A stretch of DNA of 32,000 bases from Candidatus Hermodarchaeota archaeon (GTDB lineage: Archaea; Asgardarchaeota; Heimdallarchaeia; Hodarchaeales; Hodarchaeaceae). The DNA lies in assembly GCA_048886185.1 (NCBI GenBank), contig JBHLKY010000004.1:180001-212000 (forward strand), in the 5' to 3' direction. The notes beneath the pieces were generated by a model that saw nothing but the letters and a program-made list of their open reading frames with translations, was not told where the DNA came from and made no database searches. A program made the translations under genes and the position numbers. This document shows positions 106 through 9,184 of this stretch, in pieces; position 1 is the stretch's first letter; the number at the start of each line of letters is the position of its first letter.

Positions 106-1104
106 CTATACCTTCCTACCAATACTATAACCTTCGCTTGTTATTCTTCCTGCCGCAAGATGGCATGCTACAAAGTGATTATCCTTCAATTCCTCAGCTG
201 GCGGATCATCAGTTCGACACATGCTTTGAGCATAATCACATCTCGGATGAAAACGACAACCAGAAGGAGGATCCAATAGATTTGGTGGTTGACCAGGAAT
301 CGAAGCCAATGTTTGGTTGTGAGATTTTTCAATTGATGGAATCGAAGCGATTAATCCTTGAGAATAAGGATGCATTGGTCGTTCAAAGATTTCAACTACT
401 GTACCAGATTCAACTATTTTTCCGGCATACATGATTATAACCTTTTCACAGGTCTCTGCTACAACAGAAAGATCATGCGTAATAAGTAAAAGAGTAATAT
501 TTAGCTCCTTTACAAGCAATCGGAGAAGATCCATTATCTGAGCCTGTACTGTGACGTCTAAGGCTGTTGTAGGTTCATCAGCGATAATAAATTTAGGATT
601 ACAAGCCAATGCCATCACTATCATTGAACGCTGCTTCATTCCTCCACTAAACTCGAAAGGATAATGATCCACTCGACCAGGATCAATCCCAACCATCTTA
701 AAAAGCTCTCGTACTCTTTTTAGAGCTTCTTTTTTTGAAATTTCCATATCATGTTGCATAATGGCTTCAGTAATTTGATCCTTGACCTTAATGATGGGAT
801 TGAGGGCGTTCATCGCACCCTGAAAGACCATGGACATCTGTTTCCAGCGGAATTTTCTCATCTCCTCCTCAGAAAATTCCACTAAATCTTGATCATCATA
901 GTAGATGTGACCTCCCATGATCTGCCCTGGGAAAGGTAACATCCGGAGGAGAGCAAAAGCAACGGTGCTCTTACCGCATCCTGATTCGCCAACGAGGCCA
1001 ACTGAGTCACCTTGTCCAATAGTAAAGGAGATATCTTCAACAGCTCGACAATCTCCTCGTTTCATACAATAATATACTTTAAGATCCTCAACGCGTAATG
1101 ACAT
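106..1104 (-). CDS. oppD: Oligopeptide/dipeptide ABC transporter ATP-binding subunit (OppD/DppD)
   Basis: Walker A GESGCGKS, signature FSGGMKQR, Walker B IIADEPTTALD, H-loop ITHDL, C-terminal GCRFHPRC...VACH. ATG at 1104 preferred over GTG at 1116 because AGGTG lies 9 nt upstream. Confidence 0.96.
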   Translation of the reverse strand: MSLRVEDLKVYYCMKRGDCRAVEDISFTIGQGDSVGLVGESGCGKSTVAFALLRMLPFPGQIMGGHIYYDDQDLVEFSEEEMRKFRWKQMSMVFQGAMNALNPIIKVKDQITEAIMQHDMEISKKEALKRVRELFKMVGIDPGRVDHYPFEFSGGMKQRSMIVMALACNPKFIIADEPTTALDVTVQAQIMDLLRLLVKELNITLLLITHDLSVVAETCEKVIIMYAGKIVESGTVVEIFERPMHPYSQGLIASIPSIEKSHNQTLASIPGQPPNLLDPPSGCRFHPRCDYAQSMCRTDDPPAEELKDNHFVACHLAAGRITSEGYSIGRKV

Positions 1105-1116
1105 TTCTGTTTTCAC

Positions 1117-3516
1117 CTATAGTTTTCGTTGTCGTGGATTCATTGCTTTATCTGTAGCATATCCGATGAATACAAAACCCATCGATAGCAGTACAATCAT
1201 AAGCCCAGGTGGCACAACAAACCACCATGCCATATTTTGTAGTGCTGCGGCATTGTAACCCGCTTGAAGCATACGTCCCCATGATACAAGGCCTTGTGGA
1301 GTTAAGGCGAGAAAACTCAAAGCTGCTTCTGAAAGAATTGCTCCAGAAACGCCAGTAGCGAGTTGGACAAAGACTAAAGTTAAGACATTTGGAAATACAT
1401 GCTTGAAGATAAGATAAACATCGCCTGCACCAGCTGCTTTTGCGGCTTCAACATAAGACTTCTCCTTCTCAACAAGGACTTGAGACCGTATGACCCGAGA
1501 GACGCCAGGCCATGCAAACAGTGCAATAATAATTGTTGTAATTTCTAGACTGGGGCTGAAAAGAGCAGCTAGAATCATCATAATTGGCAACCCAGGCATA
1601 ATTAAGAAAAAGTCGACGATTCGCATTAGAATCTCATCGATATAACCACCAAAATACCCTGATACCAAGCCAACCATAAGTCCTACGAAAACACCAATAA
1701 AAGTCGCAACTAGGCCAATGAATAATGAAACCTGAGCTCCCCACATTAACTGGGACATTACATCTTGACCCGCATCAGTAGTTCCTAATAAACCATAATA
1801 GCTAGGATGAACAATGATCCTAACATTGTCAAACCAAGCAATAGCAGTCCCATTCTCATTCTGGGGGACTGGGGGATTATAAGGATTTATTATCGTATTG
1901 GACCACTCTAATCCAAATTCAATTTCTACAATATTATCTTTCTGAAATGCATAATGATATCCAAGAAGAGAGATATTTCGTGTATATGTTTTCCAAATGT
2001 TATGATAAGGTGGTTCGATCTCAGCTCGTGCAAGATAACCTGGAAAAGGGCTTTCCTCTGGTGTTACAATTTGCGCATAAGGAGAGATATAATTTGGATT
2101 TGACCCAGAATATATACATTTGAAATCATATTTTATGGTCACCCATGTTGGTGCAGAATAATTGAATGCAAAAGAGGTATTTGCTTTCACACTAGTTTTG
2201 TGCCTATAAAATATATTTGGGGTTGTTTCCATTCCATCTATAATTGTCATTTTTACTGATCTTGTACCTTCTGTGAAATTCCCCTCACTGTAATCGAACT
2301 CATATGATCCTCTTGTATCATTTTCATATCCTGGTATTACCTGAACCTCTCCAAACCAAGGTCTGATGCCTTCTGAGCGGAATTCCCAAGAATCATTTTC
2401 TTCAAAAGTAGGATCTAAGATATAATTTTTATATGGTGGTGCCTCTGGATCAGTAATGTCTCGCACCCATATAGGAGCAGCATAATCAGGGCCAACTCGT
2501 GCAAGTACTCCTGGATATAAGGGATATGCAATAGGTGCACCAAGTGCTATAATTACAAAAATGATTACTATGACGAGACCCACCACACCATGTTTAACTT
2601 CAGTGAACTGTTTCCATACTCCTATTGATCGTTCTTTAAAGCCTTTTCGATGAGTATAAGATGTTGGCCATTCCAGGGAGCGAATTGTATCTGCAGTGAC
2701 CTTAAGCATGAAGGTGAGTATAAGAATAACTATTAAAGCTCCGATAAGAATAAAAATGGTATATAGAATTAACTCTATGAGGAGATTAAAGTACGAACCG
2801 ACTGGTAGGTCCAGAATCTGAATTGAACTAATATCAAATGTGAAAAAAACTCCCAGAATACCCCCCATTACAGTAATAGTGATCCCTAGTATCAGAGAAA
2901 TCATAGTTACAAATGTTAATAATAATACTATATATATTAATGCTTCTAATGCTGCTCCAAATGCTCCTCGCCAGTTTATTTTATTTTCTGTTGATTGTAT
3001 TGAGACTTTTATAATTGAAGCAACTATCCCTATTATTGTTAATACAAAACCAATGATTTCAATTATATCATGATAATAACTAAAAGTCCTATTTATGACA
3101 CCTGTGGTGTATTTAAAAAAGTCAATAAATATTCCAGTTTCAAGTAAGAAATCTGAAGTCGATCTTATAAGTTCGGGGCTTATTTCAACTAAAATTACAA
3201 TTATTGCCCAAAAACATGCATAAATGAAACCAATGATAGCGAATCTAAGTGCACGAATCCATTCTAGTTTATGGATTGTGGAGGCAGACACTTTTATAAA
3301 AGACATGAGGGCTCCAATACCAAATATTACCATTGCTACAGTGAATACAGCTAATGTTAGAATTTGACTAGTATCATCTGTAAGAGACAATCCATTAATA
3401 ATGCGGTCTCCAACAGCTATCAAGACACTAGATATGATTCCAAATACAAAAAGATAGAGAAAAGAAATGGTTCCTGATTTAAATGCGTCTGGCCATTCCA
3501 AATTTGCTACTGACAT
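1117..3516 (-). CDS. oppC: OppC/DppC-type ABC permease with three N-terminal membrane repeats and a large extracellular insertion
   Basis: C-terminal core has LLGTTDAGQDV, IDEILMRIVDFFL, EAA loop YVEAAKAAGA, LSEAALSFL, WGRML and NPR. Residues 1-280 and 361-570 are extra to a canonical OppC. Confidence 0.92.
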   Translation of the reverse strand: MSVANLEWPDAFKSGTISFLYLFVFGIISSVLIAVGDRIINGLSLTDDTSQILTLAVFTVAMVIFGIGALMSFIKVSASTIHKLEWIRALRFAIIGFIYACFWAIIVILVEISPELIRSTSDFLLETGIFIDFFKYTTGVINRTFSYYHDIIEIIGFVLTIIGIVASIIKVSIQSTENKINWRGAFGAALEALIYIVLLLTFVTMISLILGITITVMGGILGVFFTFDISSIQILDLPVGSYFNLLIELILYTIFILIGALIVILILTFMLKVTADTIRSLEWPTSYTHRKGFKERSIGVWKQFTEVKHGVVGLVIVIIFVIIALGAPIAYPLYPGVLARVGPDYAAPIWVRDITDPEAPPYKNYILDPTFEENDSWEFRSEGIRPWFGEVQVIPGYENDTRGSYEFDYSEGNFTEGTRSVKMTIIDGMETTPNIFYRHKTSVKANTSFAFNYSAPTWVTIKYDFKCIYSGSNPNYISPYAQIVTPEESPFPGYLARAEIEPPYHNIWKTYTRNISLLGYHYAFQKDNIVEIEFGLEWSNTIINPYNPPVPQNENGTAIAWFDNVRIIVHPSYYGLLGTTDAGQDVMSQLMWGAQVSLFIGLVATFIGVFVGLMVGLVSGYFGGYIDEILMRIVDFFLIMPGLPIMMILAALFSPSLEITTIIIALFAWPGVSRVIRSQVLVEKEKSYVEAAKAAGAGDVYLIFKHVFPNVLTLVFVQLATGVSGAILSEAALSFLALTPQGLVSWGRMLQAGYNAAALQNMAWWFVVPPGLMIVLLSMGFVFIGYATDKAMNPRQRKL

Positions 3517-3966
3517 TTTTTTTCACCCTAGAGTACAAACAATTATATCGTTGAATTTATTTCTTAATGCTAAAATGGTAATTTCTGGAGGTTTTGTAGC
3601 GTTCAAATAGTTACCTTTATTGATATATTTACCATTCTGGTTTCAACGATGATTTATTGCGTTTTTATGAGTGATATTTATTAATATAACGATATATGCT
3701 AAAAATTCAATTCAAAATTTGTATTGATTTTGTGAAATACCATTTATTTTGAAGCTATGATAGACATTGGTGAATTTAATTATACATACAAAGCCATTTT
3801 GGTGTAAATTTACTTTATTATATCAACAGACAGGAGAAAATTTGCTTATTTCAACAAACTTATTAATACAACACCGAATAGGGTATCAACAGTCACAAGC
3901 AAAATAATTCCAGATAGAAGAGATATTCCGAAATCCTAGCAAGAAATAGATAAAGGGTTAGTTGAA

Positions 3967-4473
3967 ATGAAGAAGATCATTCTGGTTAGTTGGCTTATAA
4001 TTGTTCTATCATTCTCTGGTCTGTTTGTATCTTCGATAGTCTATGAAATTGACGCATGGTACACAATGGTCAATTTTAAATTCGAATTACATGAAATAAA
4101 TATTGTAAAGAATAGTACTGAAGATATTGTCAGTATGAGAGCCTCTGCAACCATTACCAATCCATCACGTATTTCCTCCTTTACATTGTACTCTATTCGA
4201 GTATCTGTATCATTGAATAATCAAAAATTATTGTATATTTCTAACTCTCTGAAGTGGTATTATTTGGATGTTCCTCCTCAAGAAAATAAAATAGTTTCGT
4301 GGGGTTATCTTGACCTACAACAAGCTGATGTAGACATATTAAACGCGGCTGAATCTGAAGGTACCTGGAATTGGTTTCTCAATATTAGGGTCACACTTAT
4401 CTCTGGTTTTCTTGGAACAGAAGACTATGACAGATCTCAATCTTTTTTAGGAGTAAATTTTATCTCAATCTAA
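3967..4473 (+). CDS. Membrane-anchored protein, possible LEA_2/WHy-like beta-sandwich
   Basis: One N-terminal hydrophobic helix followed by alternating beta-strand pattern with ATITNPS, reminiscent of LEA14/WHy domains. The CDS is well supported; the fold call is tentative. Confidence 0.65.
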   Translation: MKKIILVSWLIIVLSFSGLFVSSIVYEIDAWYTMVNFKFELHEINIVKNSTEDIVSMRASATITNPSRISSFTLYSIRVSVSLNNQKLLYISNSLKWYYLDVPPQENKIVSWGYLDLQQADVDILNAAESEGTWNWFLNIRVTLISGFLGTEDYDRSQSFLGVNFISI

Positions 4474-4507: not shown

Positions 4508-4798
4508 TTACTTAGGATGAGGGAGTAAACGATCAGATAACCAAAGGTAAAGCAAAGAAATAATTGACAAAGCGCTGATGATAAATCCTGCCAATAGAAA
4601 TAATAAACCTATTAATGGGTGGAGAAACCCTTGGACAATCAACCCCAAAATCATAATTATTATTCCAATTACACTAAACCACTTCAGAGTTGGTTGTGTT
4701 GCAATGAGTGATCGGAATTCATGATCTGCATTCAAAATTGCATCACCAGAGAAAGAATTTACAGAATTCAATGTTTTAGTTCTTGCATAATTCAACAA
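4508..4798 (-). CDS. Small two-helix membrane protein, start uncertain
   Basis: Two clear hydrophobic segments (WFSVIGIIIMILGLIVQG; LIGLLFLLAGFIISALSIISLLYLWL). Fills the gap between two + strand genes. Only a TTG start is available. Confidence 0.55.
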   Translation of the reverse strand: MLNYARTKTLNSVNSFSGDAILNADHEFRSLIATQPTLKWFSVIGIIIMILGLIVQGFLHPLIGLLFLLAGFIISALSIISLLYLWLSDRLLPHPK

Positions 4799-4869: not shown

Positions 4870-5874
4870 ATGAGCTTACGAACTTACCTTCTGAAACGTC
4901 TTGTTATAGCAGCCGTTCTATTCATCGCTGTTTTAACCTTTAACTTCTTCATTTTCCGACTCCCAGTTTTTGTAATGGGAATGGATCCCTTAAATTTATA
5001 TGTGGATCGTGAGATGGAGCCTACAACAAGAGAAAGATTGAGAGTAATTTATGGGATTCCTAGTGCTGATGCTGATTTTTGGGAGTGGACGAATCATTTT
5101 ATGTTGTACATGAGAAACATGATATTCCTTGATTTTGGTTTTAGTTTCGAAACTTTTGCTCCCGTCACAGACGATATTATGCAGCGATTGCCGAATACGC
5201 TCCTACTGATGGGTACATCAACAATTCTTTCCATAATAATTGGAGTAGTAATTGGTATTGCGGCAGCTAGCCGCCATGGAGGTAAATTTGATACAGCTAT
5301 GATCACAATTGGTCTCTCACTCTATAGTTTCCCTGTATTCTGGATTGGGATGATGTTACTTTTATTTTTGGCTTATTACATAAACCTCTTCCCCTTAGGC
5401 CATTCGGTCAGCGGATCGCATATATATGAGCAAGGGGGACTTGTATACCTGCAGGATCTGCTTTGGCATTTGGTCTTACCCTGTACTACACTTACTGTTG
5501 CCTTTTTCGGAGGATATATGTTATTAATGCGTAATACGTTAGTTGAAATACTGACGGAAGATTATATTCTTACAGCAAGAGCCAAAGGGCTTTATGAACG
5601 CACTGTTCTATTCAGACATGGATTACGAAATGCCTTTTTACCACTGATCACTGTAATCGCTATACAATTTGCATTTATTGTGAGTGGAGCAGTCTTAACG
5701 GAAACTGTCTTTGCTTGGTTTGGAATGGGACGGCTTCTTTTCGAAGCTCTTTTAGCTTATGATTGGCCTGTATGTCAAGCGATCTTTTATCTAATCGCGA
5801 TATGTGTAATAGCCGCAAATATTATCGCTGATATTCTGTATGGAGTATTAGATCCACGCATTAAATACACATGA
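4870..5874 (+). CDS. oppB: OppB/DppB-type ABC permease
   Basis: FLDFGFSF, RLPNTLLL, SFPVFWIG, EAA loop EDYILTARAKGL, HGLRNAFLP, SGAVLTETVF, DPRIKY. Confidence 0.96.
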   Translation: MSLRTYLLKRLVIAAVLFIAVLTFNFFIFRLPVFVMGMDPLNLYVDREMEPTTRERLRVIYGIPSADADFWEWTNHFMLYMRNMIFLDFGFSFETFAPVTDDIMQRLPNTLLLMGTSTILSIIIGVVIGIAAASRHGGKFDTAMITIGLSLYSFPVFWIGMMLLLFLAYYINLFPLGHSVSGSHIYEQGGLVYLQDLLWHLVLPCTTLTVAFFGGYMLLMRNTLVEILTEDYILTARAKGLYERTVLFRHGLRNAFLPLITVIAIQFAFIVSGAVLTETVFAWFGMGRLLFEALLAYDWPVCQAIFYLIAICVIAANIIADILYGVLDPRIKYT

Positions 5875-5976
5875 AGCGTTTATTCATAAAATTGAGATTA
5901 CATTCATTCTACATCCTCTTAGTTTGTATATTGATACATGAAGGAATTTAATCAATATAAAAATAGGGTCTCAAAC

Positions 5977-6396
5977 ATGGCTTTTGAAGATGAGAGTTCG
6001 AATAAAACTACTATGTTCATTATTTCAACAGTTGGAGCAATCATAGTCAGTAGTACAATTATACACGTTCTATATACTCAAATCCTCCCCTTAACCGAGT
6101 TAACATCTGCTATATTTCTAATGCTGCCGGCAGTCTATATTGGAGTTCTAAATGAAGATATTAAGCGTTCAATGCTTTCAATGACCTTAACAACAGTAGG
6201 AATTGTTGTTCTGTCTTCATTCACACTATCATTACCAGCTTTTGTGGGTGTATTTCCCTATAGTAATGATCTTTTCATTTTTCAGCAGATTACTGAAACA
6301 ATACCTTTACTTTTTCTGGTAATCCCCTTTTTGACTATTGGTACAATAATTGGAGTCATCATCAACGAATTCAAACTGAAAAAATCTAGATATTAA
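5977..6396 (+). CDS. Hypothetical four-helix membrane protein
   Basis: Four hydrophobic segments. Start could be ATG 5938 or ATG 5977; 5977 preferred because the first 13 codons look intergenic. Confidence 0.7.
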   Translation: MAFEDESSNKTTMFIISTVGAIIVSSTIIHVLYTQILPLTELTSAIFLMLPAVYIGVLNEDIKRSMLSMTLTTVGIVVLSSFTLSLPAFVGVFPYSNDLFIFQQITETIPLLFLVIPFLTIGTIIGVIINEFKLKKSRY

Positions 6397-6512
6397 ATTA
6401 TAATCTCAAAAGCTAATACCTATAACATATACCACACCAAAAACCATATACCACGAAACCAAAATAAATCCTAGACTAAATAGATTCTATTCAATTTTAG
6501 GAAGGATAGAAT

Positions 6513-6818
6513 ATGAGCACTCCAGACTCGCAGAATCTTGAAGTTCTTTATCGTCGTTGGATCATCCTCATACCGATTTTGATGATTATTGTTGGTAGTG
6601 CTATTATGGCTGTCGTGGGGCCGTATAACAAGTCAGTTGCTTTGATCGGGGGCATAATTGTTTTTATCGGAATACTAATATTTGGAACTTTAATCTCAAT
6701 AATAATTGGGATAGAATTCGGAGTACGAACATTAGCTAAGAAAGTTCAAGCACCTTTGTCATTTCGAGAGCAAATTGAAGCTAATGAATCGTTTAACAAA
6801 GAAAATCAACATGATTAA
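6513..6818 (+). CDS. Hypothetical two-helix membrane protein
   Basis: Purine-rich AGGAAGG upstream of the ATG; two hydrophobic helices and a charged tail. Confidence 0.7.
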   Translation: MSTPDSQNLEVLYRRWIILIPILMIIVGSAIMAVVGPYNKSVALIGGIIVFIGILIFGTLISIIIGIEFGVRTLAKKVQAPLSFREQIEANESFNKENQHD

Positions 6819-7240: not shown

Positions 7241-9184
7241 ATGAAAAAAACTAAACTACTAAGTCTAGTAGGTGCAATAGCATTATTGGCTATAATTTCT
7301 GCCAGTAATGTGGGTGCTCACACAACACAAGTGTTTACTAGCACCAAATGGCCTACACCTTGGCGTCCCTATGGAGGGTACGTCGATGAGATAGAGTTCG
7401 TAGTCTACACTGAAACCGAGATTCCCCTTGCGATGCTAGCACTCCAAAATGGAGATATTGACGCGTACGATGAACGTGTCTTACAGGACTACCTAGCCGC
7501 TCTTGTACGGGATCCGAATATTGAGGTGACATTTACCCCAAGTGTACGATATCGAGCACTCACTTTGAATTGTATGAAATTCCCAACAAACATTACTGCA
7601 TTCCGCCGTGCCATGGCTTTCGGATTTGATAAATACCGAGCCAATGTGGAATGTATTGGAGGTGTTGGACAGCCCCAAGACAGTTATATTCCTCTGATCT
7701 CGACTGAATGGGAAGTTGAGAGCGTACTCCCTGTGCATTTCTATGACGCTGACTTTGTTTCTGGAAACGCATCTCTAGAAAATGCTGGTTTCAAAGATTT
7801 GGATCAAGATGGATGGCGTGAATACGATACAAACGGTAATGGTATCTGGGATGCAGGTATCGACCTAGATGACAATGCATACGCTGAAGGCGGTATTATG
7901 TCACTATACGCGACTGCAGGATATGATCCAGCAATCAGGGCTTGTGACATCATGGTTGATGGTCTTGAACAAATGGGTGTCCGTGCTGTAACTGAAGAGA
8001 TGGACTTCTTGGCGATCTTTGATGAATTGTGGGCTGGTAGAGCCTGGGTTGCTTGCTGGACAGAAGGTGTAGCTTACGTTAATACAGTCAAATTACTTTA
8101 CGACAACTTTGCCATTGGTGGACAGGGTAATGTCGATCCATACAACTATTATCACTTTAACAATCAAACAATCTCTGATATTCTTGAAGATATGGTAGGT
8201 ACCAATGATATCGATGAAGTTAAACAATACGCTCGGGAAGCAAGCTTACTTTTGGCTTTTGAGCAACCGCAGATTGTTGTTTATAATGATGTCAATATCG
8301 GTGCTTACCGTAATGATAGATTTGATGGTTGGTTTGAATTTGCTGGCGCTGGGGTAGCTAGTGGTGACAACTGGGCCTGTGCAACCAAGGTACACCTTAA
8401 AGAATCCCTTGGTGGTCCATATGGTGGTACATTCTACTATTGTCTATCCGATAACATGGGAACACTTAATCCTTATTTCCAGACAACTGGTTATGAAGCG
8501 ACCGTGAACCAATATGTTTATGAAGGGCTTATCAACGTTGATCCAGCCACATGGGATCTCGAACCAGGATTAGCCTATGAGTGGGATATAGAATCCACAA
8601 CTGAAGATGTTGGTGCAGGAATACAAGATGGTCAGAAATACACATTCTATCTATATCAAAATGAAACTTGGCATGATGGAACCCCATTCACAGCCCAAGA
8701 CGTCAATGTCTCTATACTCCAGTGGACTGCCTCTCCCCGAAGTGGTCCTGAGATGCTAGACATCTACAAACTTGAAATCCCAGACGACTACACCCTCGTC
8801 ATGTATGTGAATAAGTCTGGTTTCTTTGAGTTCGTTGATACTCAGGTACCTTATGTTGTCCCCGCTCACATTTATGACCCAAGTCTTGTCGGAAACATTA
8901 CTGCATTCAATCCAACACTTGCTGATTACGTCGGTACTGGTCCTTATAAAGCCGCTGCACGAGTCCCAGGTGAATATATCCGTCTTGAACGCCACGAAGA
9001 TTGGCGCTGGGATATCCGTGATGTGCCCCCACCACCGCCACCATCAGAAACAACAACTTCTGAAGCTCCAATCGAAACAACCACTACTTCCTCAACAGCA
9101 GAGGGAGGTCCTGGATTCGAACTATTGACTGCATTCGCGGTAATCATGGCAACTACAGTCCTAATTAGAAGAAGAAGAAAATAA
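7241..9184 (+). CDS. oppA: Family 5 (OppA/DppA-like) substrate-binding protein, circularly permuted, with C-terminal PGF-CTERM-like anchor
   Basis: Signal peptide; SBP5 motifs ALQNGDID, FRRAMAFGFD, TLNP, VYEGL, PGLAYEW, WHDGTPFTAQDV, GTGPYK; Pro/Thr/Ser linker; C-terminal PGF + hydrophobic helix + RRRRK. Confidence 0.95.
   Translation: MKKTKLLSLVGAIALLAIISASNVGAHTTQVFTSTKWPTPWRPYGGYVDEIEFVVYTETEIPLAMLALQNGDIDAYDERVLQDYLAALVRDPNIEVTFTPSVRYRALTLNCMKFPTNITAFRRAMAFGFDKYRANVECIGGVGQPQDSYIPLISTEWEVESVLPVHFYDADFVSGNASLENAGFKDLDQDGWREYDTNGNGIWDAGIDLDDNAYAEGGIMSLYATAGYDPAIRACDIMVDGLEQMGVRAVTEEMDFLAIFDELWAGRAWVACWTEGVAYVNTVKLLYDNFAIGGQGNVDPYNYYHFNNQTISDILEDMVGTNDIDEVKQYAREASLLLAFEQPQIVVYNDVNIGAYRNDRFDGWFEFAGAGVASGDNWACATKVHLKESLGGPYGGTFYYCLSDNMGTLNPYFQTTGYEATVNQYVYEGLINVDPATWDLEPGLAYEWDIESTTEDVGAGIQDGQKYTFYLYQNETWHDGTPFTAQDVNVSILQWTASPRSGPEMLDIYKLEIPDDYTLVMYVNKSGFFEFVDTQVPYVVPAHIYDPSLVGNITAFNPTLADYVGTGPYKAAARVPGEYIRLERHEDWRWDIRDVPPPPPPSETTTSEAPIETTTTSSTAEGGPGFELLTAFAVIMATTVLIRRRRK

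What the first reader, a model, noticed from the sequence alone, without database searches (positions are those of the whole stretch)
2668..3516. OppC permease carries three tandem two-helix membrane repeats at its N-terminus
Seen: residues about 6-83, 84-179 and 180-280 each start with [LI][EN]W-x-x-A-[FL] (LEWPDAF, LEWIRAL, INWRGAF), contain two hydrophobic helices and end in [IL]KV[ST] (FIKVS, IIKVS, MLKVT). A fourth LEW marks the junction with the normal OppC start. Known: OppC normally begins near residue 290 here. Inference: a small membrane hairpin module was triplicated and fused to the permease, adding about six helices that could act as a scaffold, oligomeriser or regulator. I know of no described OppC with this architecture.
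Basis: partly seen in the sequence, partly recalled or inferred. Interest (0 to 1): 0.72.

Follow-up and report, generated by a model that had tools for sequence, protein, structure and literature searches.

The report
Asgard OppC with triplicated membrane hairpin
In a few closely related Asgard archaea, the OppC membrane subunit of a peptide-type ABC importer has gained about 280 N-terminal residues made of three old copies of a small two-helix membrane protein that also occurs alone in related archaea; the add-on is real and conserved, but what it does is not known.

Summary
The gene at window 1117-3516 (minus strand, 799 aa) is an OppC-type ABC permease. Its first 279 residues are three tandem two-helix hairpins, each starting with a [LI]xWxxAF motif and ending with IKV/LKV. 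A fourth LEW sits at the junction with the normal OppC start.

The repeats are more than chance:
- R1 vs R2 by profile-profile comparison gives P 6e-11.
- A profile built only from unrelated stand-alone proteins hits R1 (1e-8) and R2 (3e-6).
- The diverged R3 scores P 2e-6 against a profile that excludes it, above 300 shuffles and all natural hairpin controls.

The module belongs to an unnamed family of 75-113 aa stand-alone Asgard membrane proteins. In one genome it is fused to a zinc ribbon.

Six orthologs from five genomes, three of them checked to lie in the same syntenic locus, are about 480-500 aa and start right where the extension ends. On a tree rooted with short paralogs the three full-length long forms make one clade, so a single gain is the simplest history. 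Four genomes carry the fusion. Contigs from four runs span it, and dN/dS is about 0.2, so it is not an artefact.

The function is inferred only: a peripheral six-helix bundle, accessory rather than part of the pore. The closest analogue is MalF. An earlier scan report (e1-2797725) described a different repeated N-terminal membrane module on the Opp permeases of a Heimdall archaeon.

The parts
1117..3516 (-). Long oppC gene, 799 aa. A GGGTG Shine-Dalgarno-like box lies 8 nt upstream of the ATG.
3274..3516 (-). Repeat 1 (residues 1-81): LEWPDAF, TM, acidic outside loop, TM, FIKVS.
   Evidence: the only hit in the whole genome with the stand-alone-only profile, E 2e-5
2986..3273 (-). Repeat 2 (residues 82-177): LEWIRAL, TM, longer outside loop, TM, IIKVS.
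2680..2985 (-). Repeat 3 (residues 178-279): INWRGAF, long first helix with an extra hydrophobic stretch, TM, MLKVT. This is the diverged copy.
2512..2679 (-). Junction (residues 280-335): the fourth LEW motif (LEWPTSY), a basic cytoplasmic segment (HRKGFKER...) and the canonical OppC TM1 (OppC_N).
1717..2511 (-). Extracellular insert between canonical TM1 and TM2 (residues 336-600): a sequon-rich beta-sandwich, also present in the short orthologs and paralogs.
1117..1716 (-). Core permease domain (residues 601-799, BPD_transp_1 with an EAA loop).
106..1116 (-). oppD ATPase (ABC_tran + oligo_HPY). oppF follows beyond the window's left edge.
3967..4473 (+). Conserved 168-aa protein with one TM, first gene of the divergent unit.
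4508..4798 (-). Conserved 96-aa hairpin protein. It is not related to the repeat module (hhalign not significant).
4870..5874 (+). oppB partner permease (BPD_transp_1_N + BPD_transp_1), of ordinary length.
5938..6818 (+). Two conserved small membrane proteins (152 aa at 5938-6396 and 101 aa at 6513-6818), unrelated to the repeat module.
7241..9184 (+). Family-5 substrate-binding protein with a C-terminal anchor.

Best explanation
This is a real, lineage-specific domain accretion on an otherwise ordinary PepT-family (Opp/Dpp-type) ABC importer.

Origin. In the common ancestor of a few species of one Promethearchaeota (Asgard) genus, a small two-helix membrane protein was joined in frame to the 5' end of oppC. 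That protein family has a cytoplasmic W-x-x-A-F start, two TM helices with small-residue motifs, and a cytoplasmic IKV-x-x-D-T end. Three tandem copies are present. Whether the triplication came before or after the fusion is not known.

Topology. Each hairpin enters and leaves the membrane on the cytoplasmic side. The six added helices therefore keep the N-in topology that canonical TM1 needs.

Inferred mechanism. The three hairpins pack into a six-helix bundle at the lipid-facing edge of the permease next to TM1, like a covalently linked oligomer of the stand-alone protein. The bundle would act as an accessory membrane domain, for anchoring, stabilising or assembling the complex. It is not part of the translocation pathway, which TM2-TM6 and OppB form.

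Shown: the repeats, their homology to stand-alone proteins, the single clade of long forms, the identical locus in short forms, and purifying selection.
Inferred: the bundle geometry, its peripheral position and its accessory role.
For: Repeat homology:
- hhalign R1 vs R2, P 6e-11.
- The 12-repeat profile against the stand-alone profile, P 1.4e-12 over 84 columns. Three other hairpin families from the same locus score P 0.002-0.99 against the two profiles.
- The stand-alone-only HMM hits R1 and R2. In a six-frame scan of the whole 4.8-Mb genome its only hit is R1 of this gene.
- R3 scores 14.7 bits against a maximum of 6.2 in 300 shuffles.

Stand-alone relatives: found in G074, G075, G079 and G306-308, and as P0006-P0010 in the protein database. 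A zinc-ribbon fusion occurs in G005.

Single gain:
- Orthologs 58-65% identical in the C-terminal 519 aa are about 480-500 aa long and start at xEKxKIIHRKS.
- They sit in the same gene order, with w253, SBP, w101, w152, oppB, w96 and w168 on one side and oppC, oppD and oppF on the other.
- Long forms make one clade (96/97), and all outgroup paralogs are short.
- Other long OppC paralogs of the genus have one TM before their ectodomain and no extra hairpins.

Not an artefact:
- Four genomes carry the fusion.
- Contigs from 3 of 4 runs cover window 2300-3700 in one piece.
- An SD-like box precedes the ATG.
- There is no plausible internal start at the junction.

Selection: dN/dS is about 0.2 for the extension (0.37/1.89), against 0.013 for the core domain.

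Topology: the repeat junctions and the pre-TM1 segment are net positive, while the loops inside the hairpins are acidic.

Dispensable for transport in relatives: the short orthologs keep the whole locus.

Canonical reference: DppB and DppC have six TM helices each (PMC10954201).
Against: - No experiment or confident model bears on function. The AF2 model of residues 1-345 has mean pLDDT 48 from a 4-sequence alignment, so neither the packing of the helices nor their contact with the core is shown.
- R3 of this protein is not recognised by the stand-alone-only profile. It has a third hydrophobic stretch, so a 2-TM topology for R3 is assumed, not shown.
- The extension evolves much faster than the rest of the protein (53% vs 95% identity to P0003). 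That fits a loosely constrained or partly neutral add-on.
- The gene tree is a polytomy among the ortholog lineages, so one loss in the ancestor of the short forms is not strictly excluded.
- The repeat tree does not resolve R1, R2 and R3 into clean positional clades.
Confidence: 0.65

Rival explanations
1. The hairpin array is a docking or regulatory module. Its conserved cytoplasmic face (IKV...T..LEWPxAF at every junction), or its lipid-exposed helices, would recruit a partner and so tune transport in this lineage. Candidate partners are the C-terminal membrane anchor of the binding protein, one of the four conserved small membrane proteins of the locus, or a cytosolic factor.
For: The residues kept across all 12 repeats and the stand-alone proteins (W, A-F, K, and the small-residue motif before IKV) cluster at the predicted cytoplasmic membrane interface. 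The locus encodes four conserved small membrane proteins and a C-terminally anchored SBP. Stand-alone hairpin genes in two genomes sit next to a conserved Cys-rich membrane protein, which hints that the module normally works with a partner. One relative fuses the module to a cytoplasmic zinc ribbon.
Against: Nothing else in the locus differs between long-form and short-form genomes, so no co-acquired partner is visible. Interface tryptophans and lysines are also typical of plain membrane anchoring.
Confidence: 0.17
2. The extension is a tolerated, nearly neutral passenger. A small membrane gene was captured and duplicated at the 5' end of oppC. It persists because it inserts harmlessly, and it has no function of its own.
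For: It is confined to one small clade. It evolves far faster than the rest of the protein. Copy lengths vary widely between orthologs: R2 is 66 aa in P0005 and 96 aa here, and R3 is 84-102 aa. Short orthologs apparently work without it.
Against: dN/dS of about 0.2 and motifs retained in all three copies across four species that differ by up to about 60% in this region argue for constraint beyond mere hydrophobicity. All four orthologs keep exactly three copies, and the three complete genes keep the reading frame.
Confidence: 0.15
3. The extension is an artefact: an assembly chimera, or a mis-called start codon that joins an upstream small-protein gene to oppC.
For: The genome is a metagenome-assembled genome. 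In one of the four runs a contig ends inside the repeat region, at window 2957-2985.
Against: The same continuous frame occurs in four genomes, one of them a single-contig genome. Three runs cover the stretch in one contig, and the fourth shows two overlapping contigs and no alternative joint. There is no stop codon, no start codon and no SD box at the junction. The fourth LEW motif bridges the junction in all orthologs.
Confidence: 0.02

Closest known systems
Canonical OppC/DppC permeases of PepT-family type I ABC importers (e.g. M. tuberculosis DppC; PMC10954201)
   Same: It has a C-terminal BPD_transp_1 core with an EAA loop and an OppC_N-type TM1 preceded by a basic cytoplasmic segment. 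Its partners are OppB, OppD and OppF with oligo_HPY tails, and a family-5 binding protein.
   Different: Canonical proteins have six TM helices and about 300 aa. This one has about 12 predicted TM helices and 799 aa. The extra length is a 279-aa triple hairpin before TM1 and a ~265-aa beta-sandwich between TM1 and TM2. Its best NCBIfam score (Opp4C, 220.7 bits) is below the equivalog cut-off of 350, so the substrate class cannot be assigned.
MalF of the E. coli maltose importer MalFGK2 (PMC6906923; that MalF has eight TM helices, with TM3-8 matching MalG TM1-6, is from my own knowledge of Oldham et al. 2007)
   Same: It is the nearest architectural analogue. Extra N-terminal TM helices are placed before the conserved six-helix core, and a large folded extracytoplasmic domain is inserted between the first and second core helices. 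In MalF that insert is the P2 loop, residues 91-276, which docks the binding protein.
   Different: MalF has one extra hairpin and this protein has three. Here the extra helices are repeats homologous to stand-alone proteins. The ectodomain is CBM-like, not Ig-like. The transporter family differs (PepT vs CUT1). There is no sequence relationship: Pfam finds no MalF-specific domain. This is an analogy, not membership.
Unnamed family of small Asgard two-helix membrane proteins (P0006-P0010; L018:664-897, L049:1447-1788, L054:1489-1716), all annotated as hypothetical
   Same: They share the motif order (W-x-x-A-F, TM, loop, TM with a G/A/S motif, IKV-x-x-D-T), the length class and a significant profile match.
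   Different: Those proteins are single-copy and free-standing, 75-113 aa, or in one case fused to a C-terminal zinc ribbon. Here there are three tandem copies fused to a transporter. The family has no Pfam or NCBIfam model and no known function.
Earlier scan report e1-2797725: Heimdall-archaeon Opp permeases with repeated N-terminal membrane modules
   Same: It describes the same kind of event in the same phylum: repeated polytopic modules added to the N-terminus of Opp/Dpp-type permeases, function unknown.
   Different: That report describes a four-helix module on both permeases. Here a two-helix module sits on OppC only, and OppB is of ordinary length. Homology between the two modules was not tested. 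My profile found no other extended permease among 400 Asgard genomes.

Membership tests
OppC/DppC-type ABC permease (PepT family, type I importer) | BPD_transp_1 membrane domain with an EAA coupling loop | tested here: met
   PF00528 matches residues 612-797 at E 2.2e-24, 86.7 bits (cut-off 26.4). An EAAKAAGAG stretch is visible in the translation.
OppC/DppC-type ABC permease (PepT family, type I importer) | OppC_N-type first TM helix after a basic cytoplasmic N-terminus | tested here: inconclusive
   PF12911 matches residues 300-333 at E 1.8e-4, 21.7 bits, just under the 23.9 cut-off. The segment is nearly invariant among orthologs, and the short forms begin just before it.
OppC/DppC-type ABC permease (PepT family, type I importer) | Encoded with OppB, two oligo_HPY ATPases and a family-5 binding protein | tested here: met
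   oppD lies at 106-1116 and oppF follows downstream. oppB lies at 4870-5874 and the SBP_bac_5 gene at 7241-9184. The order is conserved in five genomes.
OppC/DppC-type ABC permease (PepT family, type I importer) | Six TM helices and about 300 aa | tested here: not met
   The protein has 799 aa. Hydropathy gives 7 hydrophobic peaks before canonical TM1, one for TM1 and 5 more (two of them overlapping) in the core; read as six added helices, TM1 and the canonical five-helix core, that is about 12 TM helices. It is therefore a variant architecture of the family.
OppC/DppC-type ABC permease (PepT family, type I importer) | Reaches an NCBIfam equivalog cut-off (assignment of a substrate-specific subfamily) | tested here: not met
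   The best score is Opp4C at 220.7 bits against a cut-off of 350. All other hits are also below their cut-offs.
Small Asgard two-helix hairpin family (unnamed) | Motif order: W-x-x-A-F, TM1, loop, TM2, IKV-x-x-(D/S)-T | tested here: met
   The order is present in all three repeats of all four long proteins and in the stand-alone proteins.
Small Asgard two-helix hairpin family (unnamed) | Significant match to a profile built without the sequence under test | tested here: met
   R1 scores 1.1e-8 and R2 2.8e-6 with the stand-alone-only HMM. R3 scores 1.7e-6 only when R1, R2 and the R3 of P0005 are added to the training set, and is not significant with the stand-alone-only HMM. hhalign of repeats against stand-alone proteins gives P 1.4e-12, and the negative controls are not significant.
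MalF-type extended permease | Sequence homology to MalF N-terminal helices or to the MalF P2 domain | tested here: not met
   The Pfam scan of the whole protein, of residues 1-300 and of residues 330-620, run up to E = 1, gave no MalF-related family. The resemblance is architectural only.
CBM4/CBM11/CBM61-like beta-sandwich (ectodomain, residues ~375-575) | Jelly-roll beta-sandwich fold | tested here: inconclusive
   The AF2 model has pLDDT 74. Foldseek top hits are CBM4-2, CBM11 and CBM61 at E 5e-6 to 1e-4, with target-normalised TM 0.5-0.6 but rmsd 5-9 A and 9-15% identity. Ligand-binding residues were not examined.

The most novel reading that the evidence does not exclude
The triple hairpin is a covalent pseudo-oligomer of an undescribed, widespread archaeal small-membrane-protein family. 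That family would normally self-assemble and act as a modular membrane adaptor. Asgard archaea would have repeatedly bolted such repeated membrane modules onto their peptide importers: here, and independently in the Heimdall case of e1-2797725. This would point to a lineage-typical accessory layer that organises or regulates Opp transporters in the membrane, for example by clustering them or by docking their membrane-anchored binding proteins.
Probability: 0.15. Interest if true: 0.6.

Novelty: new variant of a known kind. Interest (0 to 1): 0.4.

Why it matters
This is a clean, datable example of how a polytopic membrane protein grows. A free-standing hairpin gene family, its triplicated fused form and the unfused orthologs in an otherwise identical locus can all be seen side by side. 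That gives a natural with/without pair for asking what extra peripheral helices do to an ABC importer, a question still open for MalF. It also defines a small, unannotated membrane-protein family in Asgard archaea. Together with an earlier scan report, it hints that N-terminal membrane add-ons on Opp permeases recur in this phylum. It does not change the view of how Opp transporters work, and the clade that carries it is small.

Tried and rejected
- Pfam and NCBIfam gave nothing for residues 1-300, for the stand-alone hairpins or for their Cys-rich neighbour. The only hits were chance-level (Cytochrom_B561 at 0.012; DUF4013 at 0.19; DUF4282 at 1.8).
- The word-indexed protein search with the 12-repeat profile found nothing among short proteins.
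- phmmer of residues 1-290 against 1.84 billion representatives found only the two orthologs.
- The ESM Atlas feature search on residues 1-290 gave no usable hit. For the stand-alone P0006 the nearest clusters are unnamed archaeal hypothetical proteins, and the structural neighbours are generic helical hairpins. These are leads only.
- The AF2 model of residues 1-345 had pLDDT 48 and was too poor for a fold search, so none was run on it.
- I tested whether the hairpin came from one of the small membrane genes of the same locus (w96, w101, w152). It did not: hhalign gave P 0.002-0.99 and probability at most 12%.
- No DNA-level repeat remains apart from a 19-nt chance pair, so the duplications are old.
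- GC3 of the extension (0.24) matches that of the ectodomain (0.25), so there is no compositional sign of recent foreign origin.
- Hits of the repeat profile in 311-321 aa ORFs of G398 and G399 are presenilin-like proteins (YD...GIGD) and were treated as TM-composition matches.
- No RNA holder was listed among the sequencing runs.
- Literature searches found no description of an OppC with extra N-terminal hairpins.
- No stand-alone hairpin copy was found in G000 or G076 with either profile. G067 has only a weak 81-aa candidate at E 0.007.
Full report
**What is there**

The finding lies in one ORF, window 1117-3516 on the minus strand, 799 aa. An SD-like GGGTG sits 8 nt before the ATG.

Pfam places a BPD_transp_1 permease core at residues 612-797 and a weak OppC_N match at 300-333. 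It finds nothing for residues 1-290 or 340-610. NCBIfam's best matches are OppC/DppC/NikC-type permeases, all below their equivalog cut-offs.

oppD follows directly downstream at 106-1116, and oppF lies beyond the window edge. A second unit is transcribed divergently. It holds a 168-aa protein, oppB (4870-5874), two small membrane proteins and a family-5 binding protein (7241-9184), with a 96-aa hairpin gene on the opposite strand. The nearest database relative is annotated as a Promethearchaeota (Asgard) MAG protein.

**The observation**

- On this protein alone the repeat signal is modest: shuffle z-scores are 3.8, 2.4 and 1.2 for the three pairs.
- Three orthologs carry the same N-terminus: P0003 (798 aa), P0004 (cut by a contig end) and P0005 (737 aa, from a single-contig genome). 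In P0005 the three copies are obvious by eye (LEWPTAF / IEWPEAF / LKWSEAF, and ...STIKVAVAT / ...STIKSAVDT / ...STIKSTVDI).
- Profile-profile comparison of R1 with R2 gives P 6e-11 over the full length. R3 matches the others only in its first 20 residues.
- A 12-repeat profile searched over 400 Asgard genomes recovered free-standing ORFs of 75-113 aa with the same layout, beside the repeats themselves. Five such proteins are in the protein database, and those that carry a name are called hypothetical.

Three tests that avoid circularity:

- An HMM made only from the stand-alone proteins hits R1 (1e-8) and R2 (3e-6) of the window protein, and all three copies of P0005.
- In a six-frame scan of the whole 4.8-Mb genome, the only hit of that HMM is R1 of this gene.
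- R3, which that HMM misses, scores 14.7 bits against a profile that excludes it and its two closest orthologs. The maximum of 300 shuffles was 6.2, and the best of 16 natural membrane-protein controls, mostly hairpins, was 5.0.

hhalign of all repeats against the stand-alone family gives P 1.4e-12. Against the three small-membrane-protein families of the same locus, the repeat and stand-alone profiles give P 0.002-0.99.

**Not an artefact**

- The same continuous frame occurs in four genomes.
- Logan contigs from four runs of one study cover window 2300-3700. Three cover it in one piece, and the fourth has two overlapping contigs and no alternative joint. These runs may include the source sample, so the orthologs are the stronger evidence.
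- There is no stop codon, no start codon and no SD box at the junction.
- dN/dS for the extension is about 0.2, against 0.06 for the ectodomain and 0.013 for the core.

**History**

A search of the genus with the C-terminal 519 residues found six orthologs at 58-65% identity in five genomes (G070 carries two near-identical copies). Their open frames are 489-555 aa, and the proteins start at xEKxKIIHRKS, 4-8 residues before the point where the extension ends.

These short genes sit in the same gene order as the long ones: w253, SBP, w101, w152, oppB, w96 and w168, then oppC, oppD and oppF. The only difference in the locus is the ~840 nt of extra coding sequence.

On a maximum-likelihood tree rooted with paralogs, all of which have short N-termini, the three full-length long forms make one clade (96/97) within an unresolved set of ortholog lineages. 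One gain is the simplest reading. One loss is not strictly excluded.

Other long OppC paralogs of the genus (500-680 aa) owe their length to an ectodomain after a single TM1, not to extra hairpins.

The repeat tree groups the stand-alone proteins together (92/85). The repeats fall only roughly by position. No DNA-level repeat is left, and GC3 is like that of the rest of the gene. The triplication is therefore old and predates the split of the four species. Neither G000 nor G076 has a free-standing copy of the hairpin gene.

**Topology and structure**

The junctions between the hairpins and the segment before canonical TM1 are net positive. The loops inside the hairpins are acidic. By the positive-inside rule this puts the N-terminus and every junction in the cytoplasm, and six added spans preserve the orientation of TM1.

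AF2 on residues 1-345 predicts six long helices, an amphipathic helix and TM1, but at pLDDT 48 the packing cannot be trusted.

The conserved residues (Trp, Ala-Phe, Lys, and the G/A/S motif at the end of helix 2) lie at the predicted cytoplasmic interface.

**How it probably works (inference)**

In solved PepT-family importers each permease has six helices (PMC10954201). From general knowledge of type I importers, the translocation path is formed by the core helices of both permeases, with TM1 at the periphery.

A bundle attached before TM1 is therefore most likely peripheral and lipid-facing. Because the unit is a protein that exists on its own, with small-residue packing motifs, the tandem array plausibly mimics an oligomer of it.

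I take it as an accessory membrane domain for anchoring, stability or assembly, and not as part of the pore. The rivals are a partner-docking or regulatory role and a near-neutral passenger. The data here cannot separate these.

**Comparison with known systems**

The protein is a member of the OppC/DppC family, but a variant in architecture.

The closest analogue is MalF. MalF has an extra N-terminal hairpin before the conserved six-helix core, and a folded periplasmic P2 domain between the first and second core helices that docks the binding protein (PMC6906923; the helix correspondence is from my own knowledge).

The present protein has the same two kinds of addition at the same two positions. 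Here, though, there are three hairpins of identifiable origin, and the ~265-aa insert is a beta-sandwich. That insert was modelled at pLDDT 74 and resembles CBM4/CBM11/CBM61 modules.

No sequence relationship to MalF was found.

An earlier report of this scan (e1-2797725) describes a four-helix repeated module on both Opp permeases of a Heimdall archaeon. I did not test whether the two modules are related. Another note (e1-1500192) describes the same split Opp locus with the sequon-rich OppC ectodomain in another genome, which agrees with what I see.

**Verdict**

The feature is real, rare and lineage-restricted, with a traceable origin and an unknown function. It is a new variant of a known kind, and the interest is moderate.

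Noticed in passing
window 1717-2511 (-), residues 336-600 of OppC: A ~265-aa sequon-rich extracellular domain is inserted between canonical TM1 and TM2. It is modelled as a beta-sandwich (pLDDT 74), and its best fold matches are CBM4, CBM11 and CBM61 carbohydrate-binding modules. The domain is shared by the ~500-aa OppC orthologs and paralogs of the genus. It also occurs in ~650-aa non-permease ORFs of the same genome and of G067 (L058, L060), the first of which starts with a signal-peptide-like hydrophobic stretch.
   Followed up: partly
window 3967-4473 (+), 4508-4798 (-), 5938-6396 (+), 6513-6818 (+): Four small membrane proteins (168, 96, 152 and 101 aa), with no significant family assignment, are conserved in position and sequence in the Opp locus of all five genomes compared, both long-form and short-form. 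They could be accessory subunits of the importer.
   Followed up: partly
window 7241-9184 (+): In the binding protein, the N-terminal part of the SBP_bac_5 profile matches residues 440-590, while residues 55-200 match the middle of NCBIfam Opp4A (profile positions 243-395). This fits the circular permutation noted by another first-reader entry (e1-5454630). The C-terminus gives weak Heimdall-CTERM and PGF-CTERM matches, suggesting a C-terminal anchor.
   Followed up: partly
L048:1315-1626 with L048:1663-2214; L049:1447-1788 with L049:830-1450: In two genomes of the genus the stand-alone hairpin gene is immediately followed by a conserved 183-206 aa membrane protein that has Cys/His clusters at both ends (HHPEC...CKSCTG...C..C) and matches no family. 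This is a possible two-gene unit.
   Followed up: no
L052:1372-1998 (+), genome G005: A more distant Asgard genome encodes the same hairpin (SWGRAF...TLIKYTVDEA) fused to a Pro/Gln/Tyr-rich linker and a C-terminal CPxC...CPxC zinc ribbon. The module is therefore reused in other architectures, and its C-terminus is probably cytoplasmic.
   Followed up: no
window 106-1116 (-), C-terminal part of OppD: The oligo_HPY tail of OppD carries four spaced cysteines (C-x6-C-x7-C and a fourth further on), the kind of motif that could bind a metal or an Fe-S cluster. This was seen in the translation only.
   Followed up: no
window 2957-2985: In one of the four public runs the assembly breaks inside the repeat region into two contigs that overlap by 29 nt. 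The other three runs cross it in one piece. One T>A difference at 2383 separates three runs from the window.
   Followed up: yes
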